From Antedon mediterranea (Eukaryota; Animalia; Echinodermata), in contig NC_092671.1 of assembly GCF_964355755.1 (NCBI RefSeq), positions 24,006,070-24,070,069 of the forward strand: 64,000 nucleotides of DNA. Direction: 5' to 3'. Shown here one piece after another: positions 485-27,400 of the stretch. The notes below the pieces were generated by a model. The model was not told where the DNA came from and made no database searches. It worked only from the letters and a program-made list of their open reading frames with translations. Numbering within the stretch: the stretch's first letter is position 1; each line of letters begins with the position of its first letter. The position numbers and the translations under genes were made by a program.

Positions 485-3400
485 CTGAAATCACAAATAT
501 AATTATATAAATACAAATATAAAAAACATGATTTTTTAATAAAATGTTGAATTAAAAAGATGACAATCTACAGTTGGACTAATAAATAAAAGAAAAGCAA
601 TAACTCAATTCTTTTTTCTCAATAACTTTATTACTTTATTTTCTTCAATAAAATGCTATTTATAAATGATATTAACAATTTTATCAGCAATTGTGTTTAG
701 GATATGGCTGAAATTATTCAAATAAATAAAATTATTGCATTTGACTTACGACAAAGTTCATCAGTTCTGAATGTAGGTATAAAAACACCTGCTTCACGAC
801 AGGCCTGATAGTAGGCATCTAAGTTGTTACAAAGTTGATCATCGTTACCAAGGTGACATGAATCAAAGACACAGTCATCAAAATACATGTCTGGACTAAC
901 TGTCTCATGACAATCAGCAAATGTACCAGCAGTGTCTGTTATTTTTCCACAGTACTCATTAGCAGAATACATAGCTTGTGCATCTTGGGTACATGTATTA
1001 GGAACTTCTTCACTTGGTTGACAACTAAATTGTTAAAACAAGAGATGCTTTAACAAAACTACAAGAGATGCTTTAACAAAACTTTAAATTTATTAATAAT
1101 AGTAATAACTAGAGGGTACTCCGAGAGTACAAACCTCTGCCTACTGTAAAATTCCCCTACATAAAATTTCCCCTGAAAATGTTTTTTTTTACATTTTTTT
1201 TATTAGTTCTAAGTGTAAATAGGCTAACTGCACACTACAAAGTTGTGGATGAGAGTTTGGTGTAATGGTTATGTATCCAGCCTCTTTTTTTTGTGGACCT
1301 TGATCTTTGACCCTGACCCTTCAAAATTTAACCACAAGTATATGATGAGTCATTGATCATTGTGGCTAAGTTGGGTGGGAATCGGATAAAAACTGTGGTC
1401 TTTAGGCAGTAAAATAGTTTTTATTAGTTGTGACCTTGACCTATGACCTTTTCCACTCAAAATCGAACTCGTCCGAGCTTTTGGGGCATGGATCATTGTG
1501 GCCAAATTTGGCCAGAATCGGATGAAAACTGTGGCCTCCAGGCTGTTCACAGACAAACACACACACGCACACATACACAAACATACAGGGGTGAAAACAT
1601 AACCTCCTTGGAGGAGGTAATAAATGATTTACCATATATAAACATACTTACATTAAAAAAAAATCTATAGTATAAGGTTTCAAAAACTGCAATAAATTTT
1701 GTAATGTAATTGGAACATGGAATTGTATATAAATGGCACTGTCTTCATCCACATGCTGACTTTTTAGTCAAATTATATTTTAATAAAAATGATCACAACA
1801 ATCTCATGTACAGATCATTAACCACATTTTAGGTTCCGGTGAAATGTGTCTCCTTTCATTGATTTTTGGAAAATAATTAATGCTTCAAAGATTTAATAAG
1901 AACAAAATATAATATGAAACTTACAGAGGATTAACATTCCAACTTTCACCCCATTCATGGACATTGTCTGTGAGTGTTCCATCAGGTAGAAATAAATCAT
2001 CTCTTTTGTTACTGTTACAGTTACCACATAGACCTTCCAAGTTCTCACGATATTGTGAGCCAGCACCTACTTTCAAGCGGTTTATTCCATCCCACTCCAG
2101 CCAAAAGTCAATATCTGTATTTACAAGTATGTTACGGCCACTCATCTCAACTGAAAGACTCTCAGATGGAACATATGGAAGGACAATTTGTACACCATCA
2201 ATCTACAAAAAACCAAATACTAATTCTAAATTAAATCTAAAAGATGTATTCATACTAATCCAAGTAAAACACTTACTATTACTAACACAAAAGTTGAATT
2301 CGTAAATTCAATAAAAGCTAATTGCCTACTACACTACAAACTTACTTTGAACTCAAAACATTCTTAAAGTCACTGAAAATCTCTAGTAACAGAGATTTTT
2401 ATTGGTAATTTTTCATTGCGGATATTCCTTCTAAATCAATAATTTAGAATGACTTTATAAAGCCATACAGCAATTAATTATATTGAATTGTAACAACCAG
2501 TGGTAACGCCTGCGTGGGGACTCCATCTCCCTCATCGGGGAGCCTAGTTATTAGGGAACGCGAGTACTTTTCGTTGAGGAATATAATATACAATAAATAT
2601 ATCATTCGTGTTCACTTCATAGCTAGAGTTCTGAGGGAAACAAATTATTAGGCCTACTAATATTGTAGAATATATTTTATCAAGCTAATTTCTAGTACCG
2701 GTAACCAATTGCGGTTCATGTGTCGATATCTGAGCTGTATCAAAGTAACAGGGATCAAAATGTGAATCAAGAGACTTGCTAGTGATAGGACGCACTTGTC
2801 TAGCGGTGTTCCTTTGTACGAAATATTTATACAGTAACTCTGTATTTAGAAGTTGGCTCACGCATCGACATCTGCTATACACATCCAAAATGCGTAGTTA
2901 CGAGAGGCAGTATCATCCCTTTTGTAAAAATCGGCAAATTCATTCACAACTATCATTTACAAGTCTGCCCACTGTCACTTTTGTTGGGTCTTTTGCTACT
3001 CAAACGCCTAGAATGTAGCATGTAGGCCTACTAATAATATCACTAATAATATGGTACATCTTTGAGTCCGTTCGGACGTAACAAATTTACATGTGTAATG
3101 GTCACGTGTGGTGTAAATTTTGAGATGCAACTAGAAGCAATTTGACATTACTAGTAAAAGATGCATGAAATATGACCTTGCTGGGTATTATTTTTTTTAG
3201 TTTACACATGTAAACCCGATAAATATAGGCATATACTGAACTTTAAAGATGTATTATCCTCCAAAGACATAAAAAATTAAGATTAATTAAATTAGATTTT
3301 AAATAGGTTATTGTGTAGATTTAATAAAGTTAATTACCTCTGTAGAAAAAAAAAACGGAAAAAATGTTTTCACTTATAAAATAAAATTAAAAAAACCCAT

Positions 3401-6400
3401 TGGTTGGCAGCCAATTTGACAATTGTTTTGCTTTAAATTACAGTTTTTTCAGGTAAATAATTTTTTTTCGATCCAAGTCTTGGTCAAAGTGGATAACTAT
3501 TATGTGATGGCATATGGCATATTTAACAACAAATGTTTTAAGAATTATTTTTTCAGGGGGACAATACATCTTTAAAGGTCACTTCATTTTTAAATTGAAT
3601 GAATGTATTTAAACACAGTCACGCATACCATTGCATGTACCATAAAAAATGACAAAGGTTGCCTCCCCTAAATCTGATTAAAATGACCTCAAATTATACT
3701 ACAACACGTTGTTACCGGGGCTCTTGGTGGCCACTAACCCCCACCTACGTGATGCTTGCTTCGCTAGCATAGCCGCCCCCGGGAAGATTATAGCGCAACC
3801 GCTGACAACAACTACTTATAAATCCCCTGATAATAGTTTACAGTACTTACCAGTGTAACAGAATCTCTATTCAGGCGTATCTCATGTCCACTAACATTTA
3901 CCATAACATGTTCTGCAATAGATACTCCACTATATCCATTCCTATATTGATTTTTTACCGTGACTGTAAATAGAGGTGGAGTATGAAGAGTATCTCTGGT
4001 AAAAACATACGAACAGTTGCCTTGAAAGTCAAACCGCTTTCTATCAAAGTTTTTGTAATGAGGATCACCCCAACCAGAGCATTGACAAGCTGAAAATAAT
4101 TTAATTTAAATCAATTTCAAAATATTCCATAATAATATAGTAATTGTTTGTTATAAAATCATGTTGGTAAAGATTGGAAAGTTGTAAATCACTGTCCAAG
4201 CACATCCGTTTTGGTGGTGTAAAGTTCAAGAATTCTGCCTAATGATCTTTTATATACATCCTGAAAATAAAGATTCTTGTCAATGGACACAATTTAATCA
4301 CACTACGTAATCCATTCATTAACAAGAATGAAAAAGTGGATTTTATTTGTTCGAAAGATAAGACTCTTTATAAAAATAGATAGAAGTGCTAATATAAAAG
4401 AGATAGATGATACATACCTCGACGACCTTCAGTTAGAAAGGAGAAGATTGAAACAGAGAAAAGAATTAGTATATACTGTAGTTTATATAAGTTATGAAAC
4501 AAAAAGTCTGAGAAAATAAAATACTAATTTTTTTTTTACATGTTTATTTTTAAAAAGCTCATATTTTATGACTTGTAAATATAATTATGTTATACTATGA
4601 TGCGCACATTTTTAAAGTGGTGAAAGTATTTTAAAAAATGAACACTATTTTCTACAGAATATTTACCGTTGACTCGTCGTGGGCGACGTCGGTTTCTTGA
4701 GGATCCTGACAAGGAAAAAAGCAGAAATATTATAACTTCACATGTATTTTAGGTAAAGCCAGGTAAGCACACATTAAAGAATTACAGGTTGGTTACAAAT
4801 TATTTTACCTCTGTACACCTAATAAACTTTTTCTACACCATTTAATCAGACTGCTATCTCTTGTGAACATTGGCTTATATTTTATGATCTTTGTGAGCAA
4901 AGTGTTTTTCCTGCAAGTTAACTCAACTTATAGCTATTAAGAACTCCACACCAGGCTGAATGTATAGTTATTTTTGACACATTTTGACAAACAAATCAGC
5001 AATTATTGTCAATAAGCATAATTTAACATAAACTAATTTATAAATATATAGTAATACACATTGAAGAAATTTATAAGTCAAAAGATGATGAAATTAATGA
5101 ATAATATTTTCTATTTATTTTCTATTAATATAATAATTATGCATTGTTTTTTTATTCTATCAGAAAATACAATAAACTTACTTAATGCTGTATCATACAA
5201 GAAATGAAAGGATGAATCAAAGATAAAGAAAAAAAGAGATATTGGTATGTATACAAAATAAAAGAATTTGCAGTTGCATTATATTGAAAGTATGAAAGTT
5301 GTTTGTACTACTTTTATCATGTAGGTATAAAACTTGCTTCATTAATGGTAAACTGTCTGTGTCATTACAGTGGTGTGCACCACAATTTATGCATGCGCGC
5401 TTGGTAAAAATTAAAAATGCTCAAAATCAATTTGAGAAGAGTAGAGCTAGTTTCACCCTAATTTATTTGTGTTGCATGCTCATTTGTTATTAAATTTTGA
5501 TATGGATCAGGGTTATATAACAAGCATTAAAAGTTATGTTTGAGATTAGTAATAGTTCAATTCTAGTTTACTTTATTTTTCATTGGTTAGATATATACTG
5601 TATAATATATCATATCATCATAAAAGATTTCATTTTCAATTGCATCACAATATTACATGTTTGAATAAACTCACCTTTTCGGGCTAATTTTGGAAGATTT
5701 AAAAGATAGGAAGAAAGGTTTGGTTAGAATTAGAGTAGATAGTAGTTTCAGTTTTTAAATTGTAAAATAGGCCACATGAAATAAGAAAATAAAGAATGCT
5801 TATCACACTAAGCTATTACAAAATTGAAGATTTAGAAAAAACAGAAAATCCGCCGAATTGCTTTGTTTGGAAATAAATTTGAAGTAAAGAATGATAGATT
5901 GGAAACCAAAAAAATAAAAAATAATAATAAGATAAGCATTATGGAAAAATATATCACTGTATGTTGTAAAAATGCATTAAATCAATTCAACTATTGAGGC
6001 AAGATAAAAAAAAATGTGCCCCACTGAACTAAAACTAAATATCCTATAAATACTAATGTATCTACTGTAGTCTAAAAAAATCCCTTTCTAGCACTAATGC
6101 TGCCCGTTATATTAGGTTATTGATTAGGGAAATTAATTTCATGAAACGCCCCAACACCTACACAATTATTCTGCATTTGTAATCAATCAATATTTATTAA
6201 ACACAGAGTATTGAATATCAATAAAAACAAAAAAGCAATGACACCTCCAAACATAATACTACCATCTGTGTCAACACTAAATCCACCTGTTTCATGCTAC
6301 TTACATACAAAACAATGTAGATAAGCTCAATCGAAATGATGAAGTAAGCATTATGTAATCAACTAATAGATAGACTAATAAATCTATTCTATCTGTAATG

Positions 6401-9400
6401 AACTTAATCCCATTAACATGAAAAAGACCTTATACTCTTGTATAACCTGGTTCTCATGAAAAAGTGTTGACATTTGCATAACAGTCATCTTTGTAGGAAA
6501 TTATAAAGTTACTCCTGCATAGCATCTTTGTATGTTTAAATTAGGCAAAACAAATTTTTAAAACAAGGTTTTAGAAAATATTTAATGCTTATCAACATGA
6601 CAGCCTCAAGTTATATGCAAGAATATATGGTATAAAAGGAAATTGTTTTCATACCCTGACGCTCTTCTCCTAGATAATTAAATAATTTTTTTATAAATTT
6701 TTAGTTAATACTTGATACCTTATATCAAAGGAATAATCAAAAAAAAAAGAAAGAAGAAAATTACACATGAAGAATGTATCATGTATGGGTTATAAATTGT
6801 GTAAAATGTTATTCAATTTCTTTAGAGTAGGCCTGTTCTATTAACAATAATTAATATTGTTGATTGATATTGAATAAAGATTGTTATGGAAATACTTACG
6901 ACTTCTTTCTACTCTAGGTGCAACAGGCTCTCCATCTAAAATATAAGATAATTAATATCTATAATCTTAATATAATCATTTAAATAAACTAGGTAGTTTA
7001 TCTCAGGGGAGAATAAAATTACAGAATAATGTCGTTCTTTCCTGCTTATCATAGTCTGGTACTGTAGCAGCAAACTGTTTTTAAAAGTGGATGATCTATA
7101 TATAAATTTACGTAAGGGAAAAATTTGGTAAATCGCGCTTTACTTCTAGAATTTTTACTCGATGGTATATAAAGTTGGTTCATACTTTCGGTACTGATTT
7201 TATTTAAAGTAATTTAGATTTTAAACAAATTATTGTTTTATTACTTTTATTTAATAGTAACCTAAAGGTATGAAAAAAAAAACACAACAGATTAAAAAAA
7301 AAATTTTTTTTCTTCTTTTCTTTGAATTGAAAAAAAAAATCAAGACCTTCTCAATCAATTTATGTTATATCATTATGTATGTTATTCGGCCATCGTAAAA
7401 AATAATGGAGACACATGGTAATATTAATGATGATAAAAACCAATTTAAACAGTACCATATAATGAAATTTTGCAAATCATTGCCTCTGTAATTGTATACT
7501 TACCCTCATCAATACAACGGAATGATACTTCAAGATACTTGTATGTTCCCACACAAGGATCGGTAAATTCTGCATTGTTTGCACGTAGATTACACTTCCT
7601 TGCATTATTACAGACTGACATGACATGTTCAACAGCACCTTCGGCCCTACACTCAGTGGTTTGTATTGGACCAGTATCACATACTTCTCGATTTTGACGA
7701 CCATACATTGCCCTGATAATATCAATACGGTTTCTTCCACAGTTTAATTTTAAACGGTCATTTTCACAAGCATGCTCTGTATACGATTCAGCAGCTTCCT
7801 GAGCTGAAGTAGGAGAAAAATTAAATTAAATACAAATTGTATAACAAAAATTAATGCTATCTGTCTAATTTTTGGCTAATTTTGGTACAATTAGATTAGG
7901 AACTCACACTTTGATAATATTGATTAAACCTTTTATTAAGACAATATGCATGGATTCCATGACCGAATGTCAAAAAATGACCTTTTAGGAAATAAAGTTT
8001 GTATCATTATACAATACATATGGAGCAATGTGCAAGTGTTATTTTCAAAATAAAAAAGAGATACATTATTGGAAACAGTAATAATGAAAAATCGCACAAA
8101 TTCACATACCTCCAGCACAACAGTATGTCACACGTAGCATTTTTCGAATTCCTGGACATGGGTCACCAAAAACATTGTTTTTAGCTTTCAACGAACAAGA
8201 ACGTCTTAATTCACACTTTTCTACTGCCTTTTGAAAAGAAATTTCAGAAGCACAATCTGTTGGAAAGTTAGGCTGACCATCACATGTTTCAACCTCATCA
8301 CGGCCGTAAAGGGCGGATATGATATGTAAATCACCAGATTCACACTCCAATCTAAGTTTATCTCTTTCACAGGCTTGTACGGTTTGAGGTACACAATCTG
8401 AAATGTAAATGTGTGGCAATAACGCAATTGTTGAATTGCGCACAGGTATGGACGTACAATATTTATGTCATACAGTTGCCATTAAACAGCGCTCATTCAT
8501 TTGTAATGAAGGATGCACTGGTTCTGCAAAAAGGCCAAATGTGTACTTTGCTGCGATTATTATTCTAAGATATTTTACTGGATAGGTGTGGGGTGTTGGG
8601 CATTTATTCAAATAAATACTATAGGCCTAATTGGTATAATTAATACATTATTTAGTTTAAACATCTTATGAAACAATATTATGTAATACTTAGCATGTTT
8701 AGAATATAGCTATTGCTTTGCAATTTTTAACATTTTTTTAATATATACTGCAATAACAAATAAAGAACATTGCTAAAAGATAATAAACATATTACAAAAT
8801 GTATGTGAATAATATTATGACTCACCATCTTCAGGAATAGGTATTGCTGAAATTATTACAAAAAAAAACATTTAAATAGAATTTACTGTGCAAACATTAT
8901 AATTGATTAAAACCAATAAAATTCAACATTACTACCTAGTAACAAGTACATAAAAAAATTGACCTTACTTCAGATTTCTTCTAGTTTTAACCATCAATAC
9001 ACTTATGAACGGAATTGAGACTAATAGTTTTGCCCAGAAAATATATAGTACAATTTCCTCAGCAAACACTTACATAGAATTTCTGAAGAAATTTGCGGCA
9101 TTCAACTTTTTTCAACATTTAATTACATTTTTCTACTGAAACATTTTATTTAATCAACTTAAACCATGTAATATGACTTACTCTGACAACTTTCAATACC
9201 ATCTCCTACATAGCCATTTGTACAATGACAACCATGATCACCTTCAACACTTGTACAGGAAGCATGTTCATTACAAGTAATGTCCTCACACACAACACTG
9301 TCTCCTGATTGACAAATACATTCTAGTGTGCAGTTAGGCGAAACCCACTCATCTCCAAGCTTAAGAAAAAAGGTTAGAAAACAAATAAGAACTTGCATTT

Positions 9401-12400
9401 AATGCTGTACTATGATCATTATCATTGCATCTGAAATCAGATAAACCATAGAGAATAAGTACAAATGGATAGTAATTGTTACAGTATGAATCCTACATAC
9501 CATTTTTGATTTTCACTTTTTTACAAGATTAAGTACAACAAAACAATATACTCTAGTAGCTAGATCAACTTTCGTATGCACTTTGAGGTCCAGAGAATTT
9601 GACTTCAGAAATTGGTTTAGGGTGGTCAAACAATCATTTTTGGCTTGGTTACACATTTTGAAAATGTGGCGAAAGGTCAAAAGGTCAGGGTGAAAGGTCA
9701 TAAGACCAAACACCAATATGTCCTTAAATCTGAACAACCACTGGTCACAGCGAAGTAATTTTGGTCTCAAATTGATCAGAAGGTATACATTTATATTTAG
9801 TCTAATGGGACATTTTAGTTTAAAATGACCGGAAATGCCATTTCTGACCTTTGACCCACAACCCAGGGCATGTATTTATCTCCGTAACTACTGGTCGTAG
9901 ACACTTGAATTTGGTTTTAAATTGTTCGAAATATATATTTTGTTATATGAAAAACATTTTGAAAAATGTTACAAAACGTCAAAGGGTCAGGGTCAAGGGT
10001 TATATAAACAAATAAATAAAGGTACTTGTATCTCGGCAACCACTGGTCGCAGCAAGTCAATTTTGGTCTCAAAATGTTCAGAAGGCATGCATTTATATTC
10101 CGTCTAATGGGGCATTTTAGTAAAAAATGATCAGAAATGCCATTCCTGACCTTTGACCCACATACCATGGCATCTTCATATCTCTGTAAGTACTGGTCAT
10201 AGAAACTTAAATTTGGTATCAAATTGTTTGAAATATACATATTTACATTCATTGTAATAGAAAATGTGGTTAAAAGATGAACAGAAAATACTATTACTAA
10301 TGTTTCAAACAAAAAACATATCTCTACACAACTTATCCTTAGACAGTAATGTTATGCAATATGATACTTTAAATTGCTGTCCACGAGAACATTTTGATAT
10401 AAACGTCAAGCTCAACAGTTCTTTTCAGAATGCTAGAAGTAACTTGCCATGTGTATCCGATTAAACGCCCCGGGCATTTATTGTTCAAAAGGGTTTTTAG
10501 GGGGAGGGGAGGCATCTTTATTTGGGGTATAATATGGTAACATGTATAATCAAATAAATACCACCTAGATGTAAAAAAATACAGCACAATTAATATAAAA
10601 AAATGATAACATTATGTCAAAATGCTTGGTAAATTGTAGATTATGGTAATTAATGAAATGTGTTGTGATACAATTATTTTGTAAATGCATGTGGCGGAGC
10701 GTTTATTCCACATGATGTTCTATAGGATGGAATGGAGGCTTTTATTCAAAGCGGGTGTGTTAATTCGAATAAATACTCGAGCTCAACAGTTAAGAATGCT
10801 AGAAGTAACTTACTATAGTTACCCGAATAAAAGGTCCGGGCATTTAGTTATTCAGGGAAGGCGTTTATTTTGTTTGGGTGTAATAATGGTAACATGTATA
10901 ATCAAATAAATACACCCCAGATAAAAAAAAAAAAATTAATATAATAAGAATAATATCTGGATTAAACCTCATTCTATCCTGTTGCAAGTACAATCATGTA
11001 ATAAAAGGTATCACAGACAACTATAATAGACCAATTCATTGTCATGATTCCGTAACACTGTTGCATAATATTTTTGAATGTTACCGACAAAACTTATAAT
11101 ATGTATAAGTTTTGTCGGTGTATATTATACACGTCTGTTCCCAGTGTAGATAATAAAACAATATATGTTTCTGGAGATTTATTATCAATACCACTAGAAA
11201 CTTTGACATGTTTTAGGTACTGAATTCATTGATAATAAAAGCATCAGAAGTTATCATGATAAAATCATACTACAACACTGTACACAAGGGTGTTTTCAGG
11301 AAAGCTGGACATATTGTACAATAGTAATGAAGCTATGTATTGGCATTTAAAAATATGCAAAAGATTGTTGTCAAATTGTAGTCACAAACAAACAGATGAT
11401 AGAATGAAGATCCATTATGAGTGCAATTGTGTCAGGATAATGATGTGTCATTGTTTTATATAATTATACTGGCACCTGGAAGAGAAGATCCATTTAATGT
11501 TATCTATGACAGTGTCACTTTTATTCTAAAAGACAGAAACATTTCGTTAAAAAGCATAAAGAAAACAACGAATCATGTAAAGTACCTTTTATCAGTTGAG
11601 AAACGAATTATAATTATTAAAATTAGAGTATTTATTCGAATTAACACCCGCTTTGAATAAAAGCCTCTCTCAAATAAACGCCACCATTCCCTCTAATAGA
11701 ACACCATTACATGTGGAATACGCCCGCCACATGCATTTACACAATGATTGTATCTACAATTTACCAAGCATTTTTTTCACTTTTTGATATTAATTGTGCT
11801 GTATTTTTTTTTACATCTAGGTGGTATTTATTTGATTATACATATTACCATATTATACCACAAATAAAGATGCCTCCCCTGCCCCTAAAAACCCCTTTGA
11901 ACAATAAATGCCCGGGGAGTTTAATCGGATACACATGGCAAGTTACTTCTAGCATTCTGAAAATAACTGTTGAGCTTGACGTTTCTATCAATGTTCTTGG
12001 GGTCAGCAATAACTAGTACTTGAAATTGAAACAATTTAAAGTATCAGTTATTGCATAACATTACTGTCTAAGGATAAGTTATGTAGAGATATGTTTTTTG
12101 TTTGAAACATTAGTAATAGTATTTCTGTTCATCTTTTAACCACATTTTCTATTAAAATGAATGTAAATATGTATATTTCGAACAATTTGATACCAAATTT
12201 AAGTTTCTACGACCAGTACTTACAGAGATATGAAGATGCCATGATATGTGGGTCAAAGGTCAGAAATGGCATTTCTGATACTTTTTGACTAAAATGTCCC
12301 ATTAGATTGAATATGAAAGCATGCCTTCTGAACATTTTGAGACTAAAATTGACTTGCTGCGACGAGTGGTTGCCGAGATACAAGTATCTATTTTTATTTG

Positions 12401-15400
12401 TTCATATAACCTCTGACCTTGACCCTTTGACCTTTTGTAACATTTTTAAAAATGTGCTACAAATAATAAATATTTATTTCAAACAATTTAAGACCAAATT
12501 TAAGTGTCTACGATCAGTAGTTACGGAGATACATACATGCCCTGAGGTGTGGGTCAAAGGTCAGAAATGGCATTTCCGGTCATTTTTGACTAAAATGTCC
12601 CATTAGACTGAATATAAATGTATATCTTCTGATCAATTTGAGACCAAAATTACTTCGCTGTGACCACTAGTTGTTGAGATTTAAGGACATATTGGTGTTT
12701 GGTCTTATGACCTTTCACCCTGACCTTTTGACCTTTCGCCACATTTTCAAAATGTGTAACCAAGCCAAAAATGATTGTTTGACCACCCTAAACCAATTTC
12801 TGAAGTCAGATTCTCTGGACCTCAAAGTGCATACGAAAGTTGATCTAGCTACTAGAGTAATAATACAATGTATATTCTTTTTATTTTCAATACAGTAAAC
12901 TGAAAAATGATACAGTACCATGTGATAGACACCATCAGGGTCTAAACAGCCACACTCTTCTTGGGGAACACATACTACTCCGCTTAACATATGTCCATCA
13001 TCACATTCGCATCCTTCCACACATAGTTCCACACATGCATCAACTGCCTCATTAAATGCACATGTCACAGGGCAGGCTGACATACATGTAGTGTAATGGC
13101 TATTCTCCGGGCATTCCATTGCTGTAGGTAAACATTATATACTAAAATCAATATAAACAATTATAAAAAAAAAAAGGATTTTAACCTATAAGAAATTAAT
13201 TGAGTCACATGATTTTGCCATTACATTGCGGTCATGTGACTCAATTACACACTAAACCATCTGACAGCGTAGAGTCTTCGTACATGGAATTTTTTTTTTT
13301 TTTGCTTTTCTTATTCAGTTTAAGATTATTAACAAAATTTAATATTTGTAAGCGTGTGTGAATGTTATAATATATAAAATTGGCTATTCTATTATGACCT
13401 GAGTTTTTGATAACCAGTAAGGGTATCTCTACAAATTTGATTTAATAAATCACACACTTGTTAGTTACTGGACAAAGAAATATAATCTGATGATATAACA
13501 TGATAAAATTGATCTCAAGATAATTGACATACTAAATATTGCTAAGAAAAGAATATATAAATGAAGAAATAGAGATTCTGACAAAATCAATATGGTATAG
13601 GTATGTATACATATGACCTAATTAAATTTGTTTTAAAAGTAATAAAAACATATATATATATGCTGCTTACGGCACATGGTATCAGTTCTGTATGTTCCTA
13701 TTGGTATATTCATATCTCTACAGGATGTGAAGTAATTGTGCAAGTTATTACACAACTGCATTATGTCTCCCAGGTTAGCCATGTCAAATAGACATTCTTC
13801 AAAGTTTTCAGTTGGTTCAATTGTGTTATGACAAGGTGCAAACACACCATCAGGATCTGTTATCTGGCCACACATTATTGTAGAGGAATACATTGCTCTC
13901 TTCTCTTCACTGATTTCTCTTGGTTCAATCTCAGAGGGTTCACATCTATCAAATTACACAATTTATGCACAGTCAATCACCCATATATTCAACTTTGCTT
14001 AAGTCGCCATAGAATTAGTAGAATTATCATGCTTGTAGAATTTCTTAATTCTTCCCTATACATTAATGTGTTTAAGTAAATTTGTATATATTTGTATAAA
14101 CGTGAACATATGAACAGTAAACCTTGAGTAATATTCGGTTCTTGTTGCATTTATTTTGTTGAAAAATCTGTAACAAAAAGTTTGCACATTTCAAACTTGT
14201 TTATGCTAGAACCAAATTCGACTTGGAAATGAAATATTTTAAATACACAAATATGCTTTCATATTATGTAAATAATAATTTAGAAATTATTAAACAGACA
14301 AATATTTTTTTTAAAATATTTAAAAAGAATGAATCCTGTAAATCATGTATGATTCCACCAAACTTATGAGTTAAAATAACGATTGTGAGGCATTTTATAA
14401 AATAGCAGACTGCCTTAAAATCATGTTGCCAGAAATTATTCTCATCATCAGAACAGAAAACAATGCCTAGAGTACTTATATACCAATATGAATCCGGTGT
14501 ATAAAAATTGAATGCGTTATTTACCTGAGATCGGAATTCCAACTGTCTCCCCATTCATTGCCGTTATTTGTTGTGCCACCACCAGCAACAGTCAAATCAT
14601 TGCTTGGATCTCCATCATAGTTACCACATAAACCTTCTGTATGGTTTTGATACTTTTCATTAACACCAGCTTTTACACGGTTATTGCCATCCCATTCTAC
14701 CCAAAATCCGACAGTTGAAGAAGATACCAAAACACTACATCCAACCTTTTCTACAGTCAAATCAGCATTTGGCGGTGTAAATGGAAGTGCTCTTCTTATT
14801 CCATTAACCTGAAAAAAATTACATTTTTGTATGAATATTAAATTTACAAGCATTACTACTTTTAAAAGATTTGATTAAATAAAAAGAACAAAAAACATAA
14901 TATAGAATAAAGAACAGTAGTTACCCAAGTCTCATCGTCACGATTTAATCGTATATTAAAGTCAATGGCATTAACACTGGCATTAACAATGACATGGTCT
15001 GCCAATGTTACCGTTCGTTTAGTACGGAATTGATTCTTGACATAAACAATAAACTGTGAAGGTGAATTAAGTCCATCTCTAAGAAAGATATAGGTACAAT
15101 TGCCTTGGTAATCCTGTCTTTTACCATCGAATGTTGTATAATGGGGATCACCACTACCTACACACTCGTTACTTCCTATGAAAAGAAAAGAAAACAAATT
15201 ATTTCAATTAATTACAGTTTATTTAATTTCATGATCAGTACAAATAACATAAATATTTTGTTTTAATATTTGGAAAACTGGATTTGATAATAAGAGAACA
15301 TTTTGAAAGGCTGACTATTTAACAAGGCCTCATTGAATTCAAGAGTCAGACTCAATTCAACAGAAACATTTGTATTTGTATATTATAACACACTTGACTG

Positions 15401-18400
15401 TATTATAGCAACTTGATTGGTTAATTACGCATTGACACATTTCATTTGGAATTAACCCAAGTGATATCTAATGGTGGTAATTTACACGTTCTAATGCACA
15501 TTCATATTTTCATAACTATATTCAGATATTGTTGACTGGTCGCTTTCCGAAAATCAACTTCTAACTGCTCTACTCAGTGTCTCAAGTTGGAGCACTGCTT
15601 TTTTTAATGGTCTAGCATTTATCAATGATTTACGATGGATAAATTGAATAAAAGTAGGTGTGTTATGAACAAATAATGAATATTTTGTATTCATGAATTG
15701 ATAGAATATGTCATTCGATAAAAAAAGTTCTGCTCTGTTTTAAACTTAGCTTAGCGTTGTTAAAGATAGAGCTGTAAATTGTTCAACTCATGAAATGTTC
15801 CTACCATCCAACTCATAAAACATTCAATATTGTAGAAAATTGTAAAAAAGTTTAATAAAAGTCATTGATTTATATAAAACGTTGAACTGGAAGTTAAAGT
15901 CAAGTAAATGACCTTGCTTAATGCTACAAAAGTGGAAAAAATAAAAATTAGAACATTTTGTATATAATACATTTGAAAGCATAGATAATCTACAACATAT
16001 TTTAATTTATTGTACATTATTGCTTACCTCCATCTCGTCCTGTGTAAGTGTATAAAGAATGATAGATAGATAGACAGATATAGATATAAATATTATAAAG
16101 TTCAGACAAAATATGATGCAACATATTTATTAATCAATTAAAATTGTTAAAATGAAATAATGGTCTAATGTTATAATGGTAAGGCATCTACCTATTACAT
16201 TTACAGTAACACATCCAAATGCCAACTTTAAGTCAATGGCTACCAGATGTCTCTGTGAGACGGTTATTTGAACCAGTACCAGTACCAGTATTATATAATT
16301 GTCTCCTACAAGTACTAAAAATATTATTAAAGCCAATTATTTTACATATTCACAATTTATAATGTTTGCTTTGACTCACCTCTTCGTCCTTTAGATTTAA
16401 AGATGTAAAAAAGAGAGATGTTTAGTAAGAATGATTTAGCAGAAATGAAGTAATGGTTCTTTAATCATTTACATGAAAAAGAACAAGCAAGTTGTTACTC
16501 ATCTAATCAATGTCTATTTTTTTATCTGCACTTAAGTTAAGTTAACTGTAGTTAATAGTTTTGTGTAGAGCTCAATAAAGATTATTTCATCTTACTCACC
16601 TTTTCGGCCTGCATTTGGATTAGGGTGTGCAAGAGATAGATAGAAAGAAATTGTTGTTTGGATAAAATATAGTATTGATTGTAATTGATACCATAAAAAG
16701 GATAGTGTATGAAATTAACCATTTGTATTATATGTATATACATAGAAATATGAAGCTTGTCAATGTTATATGTTATATACACTATTACTACATTTACTAT
16801 TCCTATGTTTTATACTATACATGTTATTTTTGTATGCATTGAATTTTTGAAATAAAAGTTTATATTACTTATTACTTGTTTGGTTAGATGTCCTTATTAC
16901 TGAGAACATCTGGTTTCATATAAATTAAATTTAGTTTGACTCACCTCTTCGTCCTGAGATTTAGAGTAAGATGTAAAATAGGAAAGAGAATTTATAGTAA
17001 GAATTAATGAAGTAGATACTATATAAGCAAGTTTGAAAAAGTAAAAAGTCAATTTCCTCAAAACGTCCCTCAATACCTACTCCCGAAACCATAATTTCTT
17101 ATTATTTGATTCAATTTTAGTTTTTACTTACCTCTTCGTCCTAAGATTTAAACATGCAAATATAGGAAAAGAAATATGAACAAAATGATAACGTAGATAT
17201 AACATTATAGTGTGAAATCTCCTTATACATTAAATGACCCTGAATCAAATTCTACTATGAAAAAAATGCTATTTGAAGACAGCAAACTTTACTTCACTAC
17301 AGAAATTTGATTTATGAAGGCAATGTCATAATTAAACTTTTTAGATGATTTATTGTATTTCAGTTTTATTTACACAATATTTAGATACTAAGCTTGAATC
17401 TTGTCTTGAACCATGTCTTCAACTCATATAAACACATAATTTTGATCCACATGGTGAATAAAACTAAGTATCAGAATTTACTAAAACTACAGTAATTTTG
17501 TTTGGTCAGTTTCAACTGATACTTTCAAGAATTAGGTGAATATTTGGTAAACTTCTTTTACCACTTTGAGCCTGCAATCCACCTTGAGGATAAAGCCTAT
17601 CGCTGAAATGATCCATTAAGGCAAATTTATACAGGTAAAGGTAAAGGTAAGCGGAAAAGGTTGTAGGTGCTTGTTGGCCTCGAGGCTAGTGCATGTTGCA
17701 GGCACTGCTGGCCTGGACTAGACTATTATGACTGTCTGTCAGTAGGCTTAAATTAGGCCTGGTTTTAGAGGTGCTTGTCTAATAATGTTGCAAATGTATC
17801 TGTTCTTTATACAAACACACATTCACGTCATAGTTGTTTGTATTTTTGAAGAAGTTTCAAAACTAGGCTAGGGCATGGCACTCATATTTATTGTCATCTT
17901 GGACTCGACGGACTCACGCAAAAAAATTGTTGATTGATGACGTCACATCAATCATGCCGTTGATTGGCCAGAACCCACAATTACCGAGTGATATTTTCAA
18001 AAAATCAAATCTGTTTCTATCCTGAGCAGGTTTCTGCTCAATCGCTTGTCCGCGTTCTGTTTAAATTGTCATAAGAAATAACATAGATTCTATTTTTTTG
18101 TTTTCAGCTTACCATTACTGCTCGTCTGTGTAAATTGGCCTTTACCCTCATAAGCTTCTCTTATAACTTGCCATTAATTTATGTGGGATGAGCTTATTAC
18201 CAGAATCAGAACCGCATGTATATTTCTGTTTTATGAAACATTTAACAAATAAAACCAAAATAAACTTACCTCTACGGGATGGTCTTTCTCTTCTTCGATG
18301 ACGATCTCTGCGACTTCTTCCTCCATCTGATTTTGACAAATGCAAATACAAAATTAAATGTATGACATCATGATACAAAACAAATATGAAAAAATACAAA

Positions 18401-21400
18401 TTACTAATTTCTGAAAACAGTATTAATACACTAAATACAAATATACAATTTATTCGAAAGTTAGGCCATGTGTGCCTTGGCTTTCAAATAACTAAGAAAA
18501 TGATCCTGACATAAAAACAAAGCATACTTACCATCTTGAATAGTTTCCCAGATAGACCTCAGTGCTTGTTGATCTAAACAAAATATATATTATTTTTTAT
18601 CTGCCTTTAGATAATATGTAAGCTTGGTGTATTTATTGACAAACAAGGAAACCATACAAATCAAGAGCATAATGTTAAATTGGCAGATCCATCCCAAGAA
18701 AAATAAATTAGTTAGTTAGAACTAATGAATTAGCTAATTAATTTGATGTAATTATATATTTTTTCATTACAAATTAAGAGACTATACTATTACTATATAA
18801 CTTAAAATTTAATGACAAAAACGATTGACGTTTGGGAACCATCATGGAACCATTCTTAAGAACAAATAAATAAAATCAACAACTATACAAAATACAATAT
18901 ATTCTAAACTAGTATACTAACCTCCATCAAAACCACATCGATATGTGACATCCAAAAACTTGTAAGTGCCTGGACATGGATCTCCAAAATGACTATTAAT
19001 TGCATCTATAGAACAACTGTGTTCCCCCTGGCATGCATCTCGCAGAACAGAGAGAGAGTGCTCTGATGTGCATTCAGTTGTCTGGATGCTACTATGAGGG
19101 CAACTATCTGGATCTGTCCTACCATACATTGCATCCATAATGTCAATATCAGAATGCCCACAATGAAGATTCATTCTGTCATGTTCACACACTTTCATAG
19201 TAAATGGTGCAGAAAATCCTAGAAAAATATTTATCCTTATTTATCATTTAGCATATAAATAAATTATAAATGGTTAATTGATTCAGTGTGAAAGACTATT
19301 TTCTAATTGGTCCAAATTTGGTCAAATTATTGAAATGTGCAATTGGAAACATACCTTCTCGTTCTGTGTTTTCTGCAAATGTAAATAGAAATATATTTAT
19401 GATAAAAAAACATCAGTGTAAAAATTTAATGAGAAAAATAACATTGGTTTCATTTATTTGCCTCTATGAACTTAAGATAACTAAACATTTTCTCTGATCA
19501 GGGAAGTGTAATTTCATTCTTCCCTGCACCTTTAGGTTTATCAAGAATTGGTGTTATCCTTTCTTTGCTCTATGGGAGCATTTCTGTAATTAGTTTTTGT
19601 ATCTAGATAACATTTAAGGAACAAAACTCATTTTTAGCTCTATTTGAAAACCCAAACTTAAACTTCATATTACACATTTGTTAGTCCTAAAGTATTTCCG
19701 AAAAACGTTACCTGAGATACACTGGTAAGTTATTTTTAGGTATTTGCTTTGGCCTTCACATGGATTACCAAAGAAACGTATATCAGCTGGAATGCTGCAT
19801 GAATGCAAGTTATTGCAATGCTGTTTCACCAAGAAAGTAGCTGAATTAGCAGTACATGAAAGGTCTTGATTACTTTCATCATTTTCACATATATTACTTT
19901 CAGCACGACCAAAGAATGCTGACTCAATGTATATATTCTCTGCACCACATTCCATCTCAATATTTTCATTTTCACAAACAATTTCTTCATTTGTGATTAC
20001 GTGAGATACAATTTCTAGAATAACATTTGATAGAAATATTTTTAGTAATTTTGGTAACCTGATATTTAACTTGCAGGGACAGTTTAAATAAAAAACCAAT
20101 GTGAGTGGGAGAAAACTTCTAAAACTGATAATGTTAAAACAATTATAAAGAGTGATAAAAATACACAGACCTCCGTACAAATTCATGTACAAAAGTTTAC
20201 ACAAAACTCTACAACCAATCAATCTACTTGACTGGTATCAAGCCAGTTTGCCAAATCACACTTTACTGAATAATGGACATTCGACTAATGGAAACAAATT
20301 ACGATTATGATCAAGTTCAAAATCAAACTGAGATTCAGCAAATTGAAGTTTGGCAAACTAGGATTCGGCCAACAGGCCTAGAATAATGTGAATAAATGAA
20401 ATTCTCAATGCATATGGCTTTGCAGTCATCAAAATGTGCATGTACCTTCACATGTTTCTATACCATTTCCTTCATAGCCTTCATTACAATAACACCCATG
20501 ATTTCCTTCAACTGATATACAAGCAGCATTTGAATTACAATGCATATCACTGCATACAATATTCCGTCCAACAGTGCACTGACATGACATTGAACAGTTC
20601 AGTGCTGTCCACTGTGAATGCAGCTACAAATAGACACAAATATAATTAGTAAAAACGAAATTAATGTAAGGCATGTAAAATCAAACACAGATTTACAAAC
20701 TGCATAGTAACACAAGAAAATAAAAAAATAATTATTAAGATTCGACAATAGCGTAATTAATAGAAAAGAAATAATAGAAAAACTAAAGGTATACATATTT
20801 AGCCATGTTCAATATTATAATACGTATCTTGCTCCAAATGGTTCAATAATAAGTTTAATGATAATATAATCTTCAGGAATAAATAATATTTAAAGTGTGA
20901 CCATTGAGATTAGATTAGTTAAATTTATACTATAGTTCCATGGTACAGCACAAGCATGGAAGCATTAGCTTTCCTCCATGGTGTTAAGCTGTAAAATCAA
21001 TTTACAAATAAAAATTAAGAGAAACAAATTAAGAATCCAATCAAAAATAAGTATCAATAAAATAAACAGAAGAAGTCTGAGAAAAACTAGTGTCAAATAA
21101 ACTAAAATAAATAAACATTATCATTCTCATCCAAATCAGTTACGTAATCCTATAATGTGTTGAAAACCATCAAAAGACTGTACTGTATGTAAATATGACT
21201 AAACTAATGTTTTTGCTGAGTCTAGTAATTAAACATTGGTCATTTTTGCATAACCATTATATTGAAGGTATAATAAAACATTAATGCGCTTTATATTAAG
21301 GGATTAAATCAAAATTGGACTTACTGGAAAGTAAAATCCTTCATCATCATTGCAACCACATTCAGCAAGCGGAATACACACTGTTCCTTGCCGTATAAAA

Positions 21401-24400
21401 CCCTCATTACATTCACAACCTTCAACACAAGGTTCATCACAATCTTCCTCCCGTTCTATTGATGGACATGTTGATTGACAAGCAGACATACAATCAGAAT
21501 AATGACTGTTTTCTTCGCATTCAATAGCTTAAAACAAAATATTGAAAAGGTTTATTCTTTTAAACAAATCAAATGGTTTAAAGTTTCATTGAATACTAGT
21601 AAAACATGGTGATTCCGATTTATGAAAAATAAATGATATTAAAATGTCACACTATCATCATACTGTAAACATAGACATCATTTTTCTATCTATAATTGAA
21701 GATTGCCCTTTTTTCTTTCTATAGTTACTTTCAATATTCTGAATCATGTTCTAAAACCACATATTGCCTGGAATGAATAAATATACTGTATTCCAATCTT
21801 TACAAAACCGTCTGCATATTTGTGACTGGGTTTGAAAATGTTGTCAATGTGTGTAAGCATTGTAAAATATACAAACGATTAAATCATGGCAGTTTCGCTT
21901 ACTGTTGTTTTGAATTGAATAAAATATGGCACTTACGGCACAATGAAGATGTTCTGAATGAGCTAAGAGCTATACCAGCTTCTCTACAGGTGTCAAAATA
22001 TTCTTCCAAATTATTGCACAGTTGAGTGGAATCGCCTAAATGGCACATATCAAACAGGCAACTATCAAAGATAGGTTGATTGTCTTCTGTGTCAAAGCAA
22101 GGTGCAAATGGACCAGTGGCAAGTGTAAGAATACCACATTGATCTTCTGCACCATACAGATTATTTTCATCTTCGCTACATTCAGGAATCTCACTTGAAT
22201 CAATTGCACGACATAATGGACTAAAAAAACAAATTTATAAAATAATATTACCTTACTATGACATTTAACAATATATTGTACACCAAATTCATGTGCAAAA
22301 AAAGCAAAAAGACCTGTAAACTTTATAGACAAATTTATTAAGGTGGATACTTTAATAGAATCTGTATTTATTATACTGTAGTGACCTAAACTTGTGTTCT
22401 GTTTAAAAGAAGTTAACAGTAATCTTAATTTTTATATGAATATCTTGATATTTCTTTTATGAATATTTAATTAGTTTCTTTTTAACATTTGTTTGCTGCA
22501 AAAGATAATTTTGTATGTATCACACTCTATCTCACACCCTACGTTGGCCTTGATTCGTCGTTCCGATGAAAACGCGTAGTGACCGTGCAGAGTCACTTTG
22601 TCTTTGCCTCTATAAATTTGACCATGGAGAATTACTCCATTATTCAACAATGCAGTGCTAGTTATTGGGTGAAAACAATGCATAGAAGTAAATCACCAAA
22701 AGACCAAAATGATAAAATTGAATTTTATTTGCTTAAAAAAAATTAAAAATGTAATTATTAATACTGTCAATACATTGTCATCGTTGTTATAATTATTACG
22801 ATTTTCACTGACTAACATCAACTGATCAGTATTCGAATGCTTACCCTTGATCAACATTCCAACTATTACCCCATTCATTCGCATCATCAGTTAATGAACC
22901 ATCTGGAAGCATTAGGTCATTGTCAGGATTCCCATCATAGTTACCACATAAACCCTGCACTCTGCCTTGGTATTCATCACTAACACCAACTACAATTTTA
23001 GAATGGCCATCCCATGACAACCAAAATCCAATGTCAGTAACAACCAACACCTTCCTACCAGACATAGATACTGACAAGTGGTTTGATGGAAGGTATGGTA
23101 GAACAGATCTTACACCATTTATCTGCAAACATAAAAATTACTAAATATATCCGATTTAAAAAATAGACATTCATATCAAAGATAAACTTAAATGTTGTAA
23201 GTAACATTTAGTTGATTTATTGAAATTTTAACAATTCAAATACCCTTTTTAAGATTTTGGAATCATATACAAATTTCTATAATCAGCATGGAATAGTTCA
23301 ATTTCAAGAGTACTAGTAAGTTCTGATTGTATACTCACGCCAGAAATCAAGCATAAACTAAATATAATAAAGGGCATCTATTATTACTAAGTGATTCTGC
23401 CTCTGCTTGATATGTACACCCTACTATATATTAGGCCACCACAGCATGTTATAAGAGTTACAATAGATTATCTGATAAAACTTCTAGAAAGTAGGAAGCT
23501 TTTTGCCATTTTCCCTTTGACTGACCAGGGCTTTCATGGTGTTGAATAGTAAACTTTTTTCATCATGAACATGGTAAAGTGGAACGCAGTAAAACACAGA
23601 AACCCTAAACTGCAAAGGGATAATAATTTCAACAGTACATAAATGTATGTATAAATGTATTTTGTATGAATTTACTTACCAAAGTATCTAAGCCTCTGTT
23701 GAGCTGGATTGTTATTCCACTAACATTAACAAGCACATACTCAGCTAAAGTAACATGTGGACGAGATCTGTATTGGTTTTTAACATTTACACTAAATGTT
23801 GGTTCATTGCTATCTGTCACATCTTGGATGAACGTATATGTACAATTACCCTGAAAATTTTTTCGACGACCGTCAAATGTTATATAGTGAGGGTCACCCC
23901 ATCCTATACATGTATTAAATGAGTTATCTTTTCTAAGTCTTCGTATTGGTGTTTCTTCATTTCCTGTTTATTAAACAAAAATTAACTTAATTTTCATGTT
24001 GATATAACAAAAGTATATGTTACATAATGATTTTTTTCTAACAGACCTTTTTCTTTTGTGATATCTAGAAAAGATTTCTATCTCTCTCTAGCTTAATGCT
24101 AAGTAAACATTATAGAATTTATATTTCATAAATAATGTGAACATTTTGAAATTGTAATACTTTATAGAAAGATAGGTGTAAATGATTAGGTCTAGTCAAC
24201 TAGTCTGTTTTAATAATTGTATTTTATTATATAATGTATATTTAAAATTGTAATTATACGTTAATATTAATGTTAAATGTTATTATATTATTTATCCAAT
24301 GTTTATAAATTGTCACGTTTGTTGTAATTCAGTTTTTTTTAACTGCAAGAACAATTGAAATAAATAAACCTTGATTATTATTATTTTATTTTCCTAATTT

Positions 24401-27400
24401 TAGACAATGATCTTCTATTCAAAGCAGATTGTGTACTATGATGTGTATGATACACAGACTTACCATTATCTCCACGGCAACAATAGGTAACTCTAAGAAA
24501 CTTAGTTACTCCTCTGCAGGGGTCACCAAACACAGAGTTATTGGCTCGAACCTTACACCTACGTCTACCATTACATTCAGATCTGACCACATCTAAAGAC
24601 CCTTCAGCCAAACAGTCAATGGGATGCGAGTCTCGCCCTCCACATGACTCCCTTTCATCTCTACCGTAAATGGCATCAATAATCTCTATGTGACCAGAAT
24701 TGCAGTTTAGTTCAAGTTTTTCACGTTCACAAACTTGTGTACTGTCTTCTTCACATACTGTTTCTGGTTCACCTATTACTGGTTCAACTGTTTCAGCTGT
24801 TACTGGTGCAACTGTTTCACCTGTTACTGGTTCAACTGTTACTGGTTCAACTAAAAATAGGCATGTTTTTTCATAAATTTGATTTTTTTTTAAAGCCATT
24901 TTTAAGTGCATGGTTTTTAAAGTTTAACATGCATGTTATTCGTTGTTATATGGCAGTTTCATAAAAATGAATGAAATCTATCACAAAAGGTATACAGAAC
25001 CAAAATTATTTGCAAAAATGGTCTTTCTACGCTGTTTATGTGCAGTGCGCATACATATGCGCGCATGATGCAAATCTAATGTCAATCTAAGTTGTTCCAT
25101 TCTACAGCCTAACTTAATTATGAGGATTCAATTCCCTTTTTTAAAATTATTTTAATTTGCCAATTTGATCTCAAAGAAATAAATAAAAATGTTCAACAAT
25201 ATCAAGCCTGAATAAATGAATACTGTATGCTATCTATACAATACACAAAGACCAACCACTAACAAAAAAAAAGATTTTTAAAATGTTTTAAAAGTGTATT
25301 CATCCTTTCAACAAATCATTTGAGTGAGTTTTTTTTGTTTGCATTTTGCATTGTTAAATATGTTTGGAAAACAAATAACATTTTATAAAATGTACCTAAT
25401 GTAACCCTATAAGTTAATGTCACTCAAAGAGGGTGTTCAGAGTGAGACCTTGTGGGTGTTAAGGATGGAGAGACTCATGTTTTTAGACTGTTACAGTATG
25501 TTGGAACAACCCAATAAAGTGTTGTATTTATAGCTGGATTTCAAGACTCTGCGTGATTGATTATTACCACTAAATACAATCATAGGTTAACTTAGTTCTG
25601 TTTTACTTATATTTACTTTAAATCATAAAAACATAATTGTGTATTGTGTACCAACCTTCACAACAGTAACTGACTCTGAGAAACTTATATGTTCCAGGAC
25701 AAGGGTCTCCAAAAACAGCATTTGTAGCAGAAATGTCGCAGTCACTTTCCCCCTGACAAGTTCTTCTTACTTGCTCTAATGAAGACTCTGCTCTACAATT
25801 TGTATTTTGATTTGTATTTCGACTACAAGCTTGTCTAGAATCACGCCCATAAAGAGCATAAATGATGTTGATGGTACCTTGCTCACAGTGTATGTTCATT
25901 GATTCATGTTCACAAACTTCTGAAGTCTGTGCCACACAGTTTACTAAAAAACAACAACCAAGAATGCACCATATGAGTATATAAACAAAAAAGAAACTTT
26001 TAACAATCGTTTTGTATAGATGCTCAACAATCTTCTGAAAAGGCATAACATTTTTTATACAGGAAAAGACAATTTTATCACAAAATCACTATTATTGCCT
26101 TCAATGCATGAATAATATGCATGACATTTATTTAACGTCTCGACAGGAATACAGTTTGAGTTAACAATCAGGAAACTTTATTTTTACAAAGCATACAAAT
26201 CATTTTATAGCTAAATCATTACTATACTACTTTATATAGATTAACAAAATACAGAGACTACTATTATAAGAAAGCTCGCAAAACTAATGAACCTGAAGAC
26301 TGGGACAAAGTTAAACAACTGAGAAATCAAGTTAATAATTTAAATAGGAATTTAAAAAGAAAATATTGTACAACTACTATTAACGAAAATGCTAAAAATC
26401 CCAAGAAATTATGGAATACAATAAATAAATTAATACCTAAAACTAAACCCAGTATAAATAATGTATATAAAGATAACAATAAAAACTATACATCCAATGA
26501 TAAGGACACAGCCAATGTTTTCAATGCTCATTTTACTTCAATTGGAAGTTCTTTAGCAAATCAATTTACTAACTCCAATAATACTAACTCCAATAATTAT
26601 ACTAGTAACACTTCAGAAAATTGTTTTGCGGGTAACAAATTTGAATTTGATCTTCTTACCCCTGATTACATTTTTAACCAGTTATGTACATTGTCACCTA
26701 ATAAAGCTAAGGGTGTTGATAACTTTGATTGCAAACTTCTTAAACTAGCTGCTCCGATAATTTGTGACTCACTCTCATATATTTGTAATTTTTCTATGTT
26801 CAGTTCTAGATTTCCAGATGAATGGAAACTAGCTAAGGTAACACCTGTATATAAAGATGGGGATATGTCAGACCCTTATAATTACCGCCCAATTTCCGTT
26901 TTACCCATACTTTCAAAACTCTTAGAATCAATCAATTATACTTGTATTTAAGAACTAACAACCTTATTAATCCCTCCCAATCGGGCTTTAGAAGAGGTCA
27001 CTCTACAGAAACTACTCTTTTAGATGTAACTGATTATATTTTAGATAACTTTGATAAAGGACTCTTCTGCTGCTTTATTTCTTGACTTGAAGAAAGCATT
27101 TGATACAGTTAACCATGAAATATTACTTACCAAATTAAGGAATTATGGGTTAAATGATATTGCACTTCACCGGTTTAAATCATATTTAAGTGGACAACCT
27201 CAAGTTGTTTGTATAAATTCAACAAAATCTGAAACCATGAATGTTAATATTGGTGTCCCACAAGGATCAATACTTGGACCTTTACTATTTATTTTATACG
27301 TAAATTCACTTCCTGATTTTCACGCTGCTGCTCTAGCCCGCTACGTCCCATTAGGACTACTCAATCAGAAGCTAAAGCAAGCAGCAGTTATAGTTCTAAG

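What the first reader, a model, noticed from the sequence alone, without database searches (positions are those of the whole stretch)
4418..6935. Second microexon-built Arg-rich linker before VWD3
Seen: exons of 36, 15, 9, 6, 39 and 9 nt, all phase 1-1, give DGEPVAPRVERS-REERQ-ARK-AL-RSSRNRRRPRRVN-GRR-ACQCSGWGDPH. The ARK exon (CCCGAAAAG|gtgagt) nearly matches the GRK exon at 16600, while the GRR exon here uses different codons (GTCGTCGAG vs GACGAAGAG). Inference: the microexon cassette predates the module duplication, and synonymous divergence with the same GRR peptide argues for protein-level selection rather than chance splice-like motifs.
Basis: partly seen in the sequence, partly recalled or inferred. 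Interest (0 to 1): 0.8.

Follow-up and report, generated by a model that had tools for sequence, protein, structure and literature searches.

The report
Skipped microexons tune feather-star linker
In a feather-star gene for a large, likely secreted mucus- or glue-type protein, an arginine-rich linker uses two short exons in the one RNA sample checked and skips four tinier ones, three of which look like regulated microexons that would add extra basic residues in some cell types.

Summary
All six exon candidates exist at the stated coordinates, phase 1-1 and in frame. The skipped 9/6/9-nt candidates are unlikely to be chance. They have long AG-free zones and displaced CU-rich tracts like eMIC/PTB-regulated microexons. 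A window-wide filter finds 8 such sites in the two pre-VWD linkers, 1 elsewhere on the gene strand and 0 on the other strand. UGC motifs are not enriched. The gene is a crinoid (Antedon) FAMeT/SUEL/F5-8/VWD-C8-TIL protein resembling FCGBP and sea-star Sfp1. The included 39-nt exon already supplies two furin-type motifs upstream of the GDPH-tethering cysteine; the microexons would add net +4 charge and no further canonical site. 'Predates module duplication' is unsupported: order and sizes differ, module 1 lacks the cassette, and flanks do not pair ARK with GRK. Inclusion is not shown, and no orthologue was found.

The parts
7504..7803 (-). SUEL lectin exon upstream of the linker
   Evidence: Pfam PF02140 E=1.1e-19; on RNA contig
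6900..6935 (-). 36-nt linker exon, included
   Evidence: on the spliced contig, joined to the 39-nt exon
6655..6669 (-). 15-nt candidate exon (EERQ core), skipped in X1; ordinary acceptor, no CU tract
   Evidence: inclusion not shown
5675..5683 (-). 9-nt candidate microexon (RK), skipped in X1; AG-free zone 113 nt, distal pyrimidine 0.76
   Evidence: inclusion not shown
5182..5187 (-). 6-nt candidate microexon, skipped in X1; AG-free zone 118 nt, distal pyrimidine 0.84
   Evidence: inclusion not shown
4667..4705 (-). 39-nt polybasic exon, included; carries furin-type motifs RNRR and RPRR
   Evidence: on the spliced contig; motif count
4418..4426 (-). 9-nt candidate microexon (RR), skipped in X1; AG-free zone 47 nt, distal pyrimidine 0.76
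   Evidence: inclusion not shown
3851..4089 (-). first exon of VWD3 with the beta-1 cysteine and GDPH
   Evidence: Pfam PF00094; FCGBP is the best solved match; on RNA contig
1925..2202 (-). second exon of VWD3 with the GLCG partner cysteine
16028..18573 (-). paralogous linker before VWD2: candidates of 42 nt (18573-18532), 57 nt (18326-18270, RSRR and RHRR motifs), four of 9 nt (17140, 16953, 16608, 16388) and 12 nt (16039-16028)
   Evidence: no RNA was laid on this stretch
23680..23963 (-). VWD1 first exon with a shorter basic linker inside the exon, no microexons before it

Best explanation
The linker before VWD3 is encoded by two included short exons (36 and 39 nt), while the 9-, 6- and 9-nt pieces (and possibly the 15-nt one) are likely real, normally skipped microexons that a cell-type-specific splicing program would switch on to add basic residues to a linker predicted to be cut by a furin-type convertase. 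Shown: inclusion of 36+39 and skipping of the rest in one RNA run; two R-X-[KR]-R motifs in the 39-nt exon; GDPH and both tethering cysteines in VWD3; non-random acceptor architecture. From established knowledge of FCGBP: GDPH self-cleavage leaves the pieces held by a disulfide from the beta-1 cysteine. Inferred: a convertase cut upstream of that cysteine would truly release the SUEL lectin part from the VWD-C8-TIL assembly. Microexon inclusion (net +4 here, net +8 and two more furin motifs in the VWD2 linker) would set how basic, how long and how readily cut each linker is. The regulator is inferred to be eMIC/Srrm234 with PTB-type repression.
For: Joints 4704->6899 and 4089->4667 on a depth-59.4 contig. 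Eight tiny candidates versus 24 domain exons: AG-free zone median 94.5 vs 39 (p=0.0065), CU 4-mers 7 vs 0 (p=1e-4), distal pyrimidine 0.76 vs 0.56 (p=3e-5), proximal pyrimidine 0.58 vs 0.75 (p=0.03). These match the eMIC code of weak 3' site, long AG exclusion zone and UCUC tract (PMC8797185, passages). Control: a 6-nt exon at 38832-38827 with an ordinary strong acceptor is used in the RefSeq protein XP_071941074.1. Furin-type motifs occur within the 30 residues before the cysteine in 0 of 656 C..GDPH sites in 220 fetched proteins, mostly vertebrate FCGBP, zonadhesin and mucins, but lie in the linkers before VWD2 and VWD3 here. Disulfide tether in FCGBP: PMC8267560 and PMC10880436 (passages).
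Against: No contig includes any of the four tiny exons (0 of 6 records); one run, tissue unknown. UGC within 30 nt: 0 of 3 in this linker, 2 of 8 overall versus 5 of 24 domain exons (p=0.83). The group statistics are partly circular, and three of the eight are tandem copies. Inclusion adds no canonical furin motif in this linker (2 before, 2 after). The 6-nt exon adds no basic residue. No orthologue was retrieved, so conservation is untested. The signal peptide of the large gene is not resolved. Cleavage is untested.
Confidence: 0.5

Rival explanations
1. The microexons are real and regulated but act as a charge dial, not through cleavage. Each Gly-Arg-Arg or x-Arg-Lys unit adds +2 to an uncut cationic patch that binds anionic glycans or surfaces in a cohesive or adhesive secretion.
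For: Inclusion adds 6 R/K and no furin motif here. Flatworm cohesive protein Mlig-ap1 has a vWD-C8-TIL core flanked by GRK-rich positive regions, and heparin blocks attachment (PMC9229212, PMC6745481; passages). The domain set matches sea-star footprint proteins (PMC9382459).
Against: The patch is 9-20 basic residues, not the long GRK tracts of flatworms. Canonical furin motifs sit in the included exon. Expression in adhesive cells is not shown.
Confidence: 0.2
2. The tiny candidates are silenced relics: copies of a once-used exon-plus-flank unit that spread by local duplication and are now almost never spliced in.
For: Skipped in the only RNA run. Flanks of 17140, 16953 and 16388 are related by duplication (0 of 1000 shuffles for two pairs), and 5683 is weakly related to them. 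Weak acceptors, no UGC enrichment.
Against: All eight keep GT/AG, frame and open reading despite diverged flanks. 4426 has no related flank yet has the same architecture and reads RR with 67% GC in a 27% GC linker region.
Confidence: 0.2
3. The tiny candidates are chance splice-like strings in AT-rich introns.
For: 706 AG-3n-GT strings of 6-15 nt occur on the gene strand and 732 on the other. The filter was chosen afterwards. This is most plausible for the 6- and 15-nt candidates.
Against: 8 of 9 filter hits fall in 5.9 kb of linker out of 128 kb scanned, 0 on the plus strand; dibasic bias.
Confidence: 0.07
4. One reading: all six exons are constitutively joined, and the cassette is older than the module duplication.
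For: All six join in frame; both VWD2 and VWD3 have such linkers.
Against: The RNA contig skips four; order, sizes, flanks and module identities do not show a shared ancestral cassette.
Confidence: 0.03

Closest known systems
eMIC/SRRM3-4 (Srrm234)-dependent neural microexons (PMC8797185; bioRxiv 10.1101/2024.09.17.613571; passages read)
   Same: 3-27 nt, frame-preserving, weak proximal 3' site, long AG-free zone, displaced CU-rich tract, skipped in the sample seen
   Different: UGC not enriched; neural inclusion and eMIC dependence untested; several near-identical tandem units in one linker of a likely secreted protein
FCGBP (IgGFc-binding protein; PMC8267560, PMC10880436, passages; PDB 8rde is the best solved match)
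   Same: repeated VWD-C8-TIL-TILa assemblies, each with GDPH and the tethering cysteines
   Different: SUEL, FAMeT and F5/8 domains, and polybasic furin-type linkers before VWD, seen in 0 of 656 such sites in fetched relatives
[quoted passage not shown]
   Same: echinoderm, large, domain vocabulary of VWD, C8, TIL, Gal-lectin, FA58C, FAMeT, EGF; autocatalytic cleavage motif
   Different: orthology not tested (no Sfp sequence in hand); no polybasic or microexon linker mentioned in the passages read; site of expression unknown
Flatworm cohesive proteins Mlig-ap1, Mile-ap3, Tmed-ap3 (PMC6745481, PMC9229212; passages)
   Same: vWD-C8-TIL core with Gly-Arg-Lys-type cationic repeats
   Different: there, long low-complexity tracts or a separate protein; here a few triplets, one per exon, between domains
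Schistosome micro-exon genes, MEGs (bioRxiv 10.1101/2023.06.21.545858, abstract and outline)
   Same: runs of tiny exons in a gene for a secreted product
   Different: MEGs consist of short exons throughout; here domain exons of about 130-440 nt dominate and microexons are confined to linkers

Membership tests
eMIC-dependent neural microexons | 3-27 nt, frame-preserving | tested here: met
   15, 9, 6, 9 nt, phase 1-1
eMIC-dependent neural microexons | long AG exclusion zone and displaced CU-rich pyrimidine tract | tested here: met
   3 of 4 tiny candidates in this linker; the 15-nt one fails
eMIC-dependent neural microexons | weak proximal 3' splice site | tested here: inconclusive
   acceptor scores 0.8-3.3 against leave-one-out range -3.9 to 14.5 from only 24 training sites; proximal pyrimidine lower overall (p=0.03) but not for these three alone (p=0.30)
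eMIC-dependent neural microexons | UGC motif close to the 3' splice site | tested here: not met
   0 of 3 here; 2 of 8 vs 5 of 24. The preprint passage says UGC helps but is not strictly needed. Not filed as a member.
eMIC-dependent neural microexons | neuron-specific inclusion that depends on the eMIC domain | not testable with these tools
   one RNA-like run, contigs only, tissue unknown
FCGBP/zonadhesin-type D-assembly proteins | repeated VWD-C8-TIL(-TILa) | tested here: met
   Pfam on modules 1 and 3 and parts of module 2; module 2 VWD second half, C8 and TIL by 41-54% identity
FCGBP/zonadhesin-type D-assembly proteins | GDPH with beta-1 cysteine and GLCG partner cysteine | tested here: met
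   present in 3 of 3 VWD domains by sequence; pairing inferred from FCGBP
Sfp1-type echinoderm cohesive proteins | VWD, C8, TIL, Gal-lectin, FA58C, FAMeT and EGF in one chain | tested here: inconclusive
Sfp1-type echinoderm cohesive proteins | sequence orthology to Sfp1 | not tested
   no Sfp sequence among the listed hits; supplements unavailable
Sfp1-type echinoderm cohesive proteins | expression in adhesive gland cells and presence in the footprint | not testable with these tools
   needs in situ hybridisation and proteomics
Schistosome MEG family | gene composed of 3-81 nt exons | tested here: not met
   most coding sequence lies in exons of about 130-440 nt
Mlig-ap1/ap3 GRK proteins | long low-complexity GRK tracts | tested here: not met
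   at most 20 basic residues per linker

The most novel reading that the evidence does not exclude
A crinoid Sfp1/FCGBP-like secreted protein carries a splicing dial. One-triplet Gly-Arg-Arg/x-Arg-Lys microexons, multiplied by tandem duplication with their regulatory flanks and wired to the eMIC/PTB program, let particular cells titrate the charge and convertase sensitivity of each lectin-VWD junction, and so decide whether the protein stays disulfide-tethered or falls into separate lectin and D-assembly subunits.
Probability: 0.3. Interest if true: 0.75.

Novelty: new variant of a known kind. Interest (0 to 1): 0.5.

Why it matters
Regulated microexons are described mainly as neuronal switches. 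A tandem array of them in the processing linkers of an echinoderm mucus- or glue-type protein would extend that program to tuning an extracellular material and show microexons arising by copying of exon plus flank. It would also give a simple RT-PCR and proteomics test of how GDPH-tethered D-assembly proteins are released into true subunits. If the exons are never included, the finding shrinks to an ordinary polybasic linker made of two short exons.

Tried and rejected
No whole genome is held, so modules left of the window could not be inspected. No listed run is on record as RNA; X1 is a guess that its spliced joints support. Lack of X1 cover over the four tiny exons is not used as evidence by itself; only the contig joining across them is. 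Protein searches found neither this gene's VWD part nor an echinoderm orthologue among the listed rows: 1 hit, fish; best 120 of 317 listed; best 120 of 161 listed. The FAMeT search (best 150 of 1637 listed) gave no 100% match to the query exon, and none of its rows had both SUEL and VWD matches. The metagenome scan had 174 pattern matches and 0 confirmed. The ESM Atlas gave HNH look-alikes for the VWD exon, rejected because Pfam and PDB assign VWD. Supplements of PMC9382459, which may hold Sfp sequences bearing on orthology, could not be read. Earlier-findings look-ups gave nothing on this locus. A neuropeptide-type reading (G-R-R as amidation signal, recalled) was rejected: cuts would free only 1-3 residue scraps. 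No fold or complex job was run.
Full report
Setting. The window is AT-rich animal DNA. A multi-exon gene runs on the minus strand. Pfam on 21 single exons gives FAMeT, SUEL lectin, F5/8 type C, VWD, C8, TIL and TILa/EGF. With the exon translations the order is FAMeT-SUEL-FAMeT-SUEL-F5/8-SUELx3-[VWD-C8-TIL-TILa]-SUEL-linker-[VWD-C8-TIL-TILa]-SUELx2-linker-[VWD-C8-TIL], running off the left end. Protein P0030 is 100% identical to the first FAMeT and SUEL exons and is XP_071941074.1 of Antedon mediterranea, so the organism is that crinoid or a very close relative.

Observation. One RNA-like run was available among 5 listed. Its 8503-nt contig (depth 59.4) joins the domain exons with 0-1 mismatches and leaves 75 nt between 7504 and 4089, while a DNA run spans 3667-7123 unspliced. 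Because 36+39 and 36+15+9+6+9 both give 75, I laid the narrow stretch. The contig holds 6899-6936 and 4667-4704, with GT-AG joints 4704->6899 and 4089->4667 and no letters between; none of the 6 records laid carries a tiny exon. So two exons are confirmed and four are skipped in the majority form of this run. Minority forms are dropped by the assembly.

Chance. There are 706 and 732 open AG-3n-GT strings of 6-15 nt on the two strands, 42 and 19 of them with consensus donors. Adding an AG-free zone >=40 nt and >=68% pyrimidine at -45..-21 leaves 3 hits in this linker, 5 in the VWD2 linker, 1 elsewhere (50151) and 0 on the plus strand. The 3 and 5 are stable over 9 settings; other hits range 1-5 and 0-1 and include plausible small exons at 50030 and 19372. 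Poisson p for 3 in 2.8 kb is 2e-6 to 2e-4, with the caveat that the filter was post hoc. Against 24 domain exons the eight have longer AG-free zones, more CU 4-mers, a stronger distal and weaker proximal tract, but no UGC enrichment (2 of 8 vs 5 of 24; 0 of 3 here). This resembles the eMIC cis-code in PMC8797185 (passages); the SRRM3/4 preprint says UGC helps but is not strictly needed (passages). The 15-nt candidate lacks this signature and has an ordinary acceptor. As a control, the 6-nt exon 38832-38827 has a strong ordinary acceptor (11.3) and is used in the RefSeq protein. Six of 71 9-nt strings ending in AG read dibasic, and the six linker 9-mers account for them.

History. Flanks of 17140/16953 and 16953/16388 are related (0 of 1000 shuffles each), so the VWD2 cassette grew by local duplication of exon plus flank. 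5683 is weakly like those three (16, 20, 41 of 1000) and not like 16608 (289 of 1000). 4426 and 5187 match nothing (36 pairs tested). Modules are only 41-57% identical, and the two cassette-bearing modules are not each other's closest pair. Module 1 has a basic linker inside its VWD exon. An ancestral basic linker is plausible; an ancestral microexon cassette is not shown.

Mechanism. All three VWDs have C-x-x-x-GDPH and the GLCG cysteine, and FCGBP is the closest solved relative. In FCGBP all GDPH sites self-cleave, but the pieces stay linked by a disulfide from the beta-1 cysteine (PMC8267560, PMC10880436; passages). The included 39-nt exon has two R-X-[KR]-R motifs (furin consensus, recalled) upstream of that cysteine. 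The same motif occurs within 30 residues before 0 of 656 C..GDPH sites in 220 fetched proteins. I infer a convertase cut that frees the lectin part. Including all four tiny exons raises R+K from 9 to 15 and D+E from 5 to 7 and adds no canonical motif. In the VWD2 linker the five tiny exons raise R+K from 11 to 20 and motifs from 2 to 4. The best reading (0.5) is regulated, normally skipped microexons that tune a convertase-cut polybasic linker.

Known systems. The domain set matches sea-star footprint proteins such as Sfp1 and a sea-urchin adhesive candidate (PMC9382459, PMC7037938; passages), and Antedon larvae attach by an adhesive pit (PMC11336682, passages). Orthology and expression site are untested. 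It is not a schistosome-type MEG (abstract and outline). It is not filed as an eMIC target because UGC was not met and neural inclusion could not be tested.

Novelty. Searches for microexon + furin + cleavage site + alternative splicing (1 paper, on Gpr126, listing only), for microexon or splicing with adhesive protein or tube feet (2 papers, listings), for echinoderm microexons (7 listings) and for Sfp1 in crinoids showed nothing on this arrangement. The library lacks most subscription papers. Verdict: new variant of a known kind, interest 0.5. The striking part, inclusion of the tiny exons in some cell type, is inferred from sequence and not yet observed.

Noticed in passing
window 50030-38570 (minus): RefSeq XP_071941074.1 (290 aa) uses exons at 50030, 48344, 47566, 39018, 38832 and ends in a short terminal exon near 38603. 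The downstream FAMeT-to-VWD exons were not found as a protein in any search, so the large gene may be split or missing in the databases searched; its 5' end is unresolved.
   Followed up: partly
window 38832-38827 (minus): A 6-nt exon with a strong ordinary acceptor that the RefSeq protein includes; a useful contrast to the CU-rich skipped ones.
   Followed up: yes
window 4089-4075 and 2202-1925 (minus): VWD3 has an extra cysteine before the beta-1 cysteine and an extra one after GLCG, where VWD1 and VWD2 have none; possibly a second tether across the GDPH cut.
   Followed up: no
window 19372-19355, 8846-8826, 31743-31708 (minus): Further small spacer exon candidates (18, 21, 36 nt) between domains, with ordinary acceptors.
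   Followed up: partly
window 50151-50143, 40352-40309, 40640-40556 (minus): Other short exon-like stretches with good donors that are not in the RefSeq model; not resolved.
   Followed up: partly
window about 32280-34975: A long tandem array of a roughly 41-nt unit inside an intron of the F5/8 region, seen by eye.
   Followed up: no
window about 9500-10550 and 11630-12860: A large inverted repeat pair in the intron between TIL2 and TILa2, seen by eye.
   Followed up: no
window about 26300-28700 and 60100-62400: Broken reverse-transcriptase-like stretches, probably LINE remnants, by eye only.
   Followed up: no
window about 1130-1500, 3300-3600, 7090-7320: High-copy interspersed repeats, with summed contig depths of 10^4-10^5 in DNA runs.
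   Followed up: no
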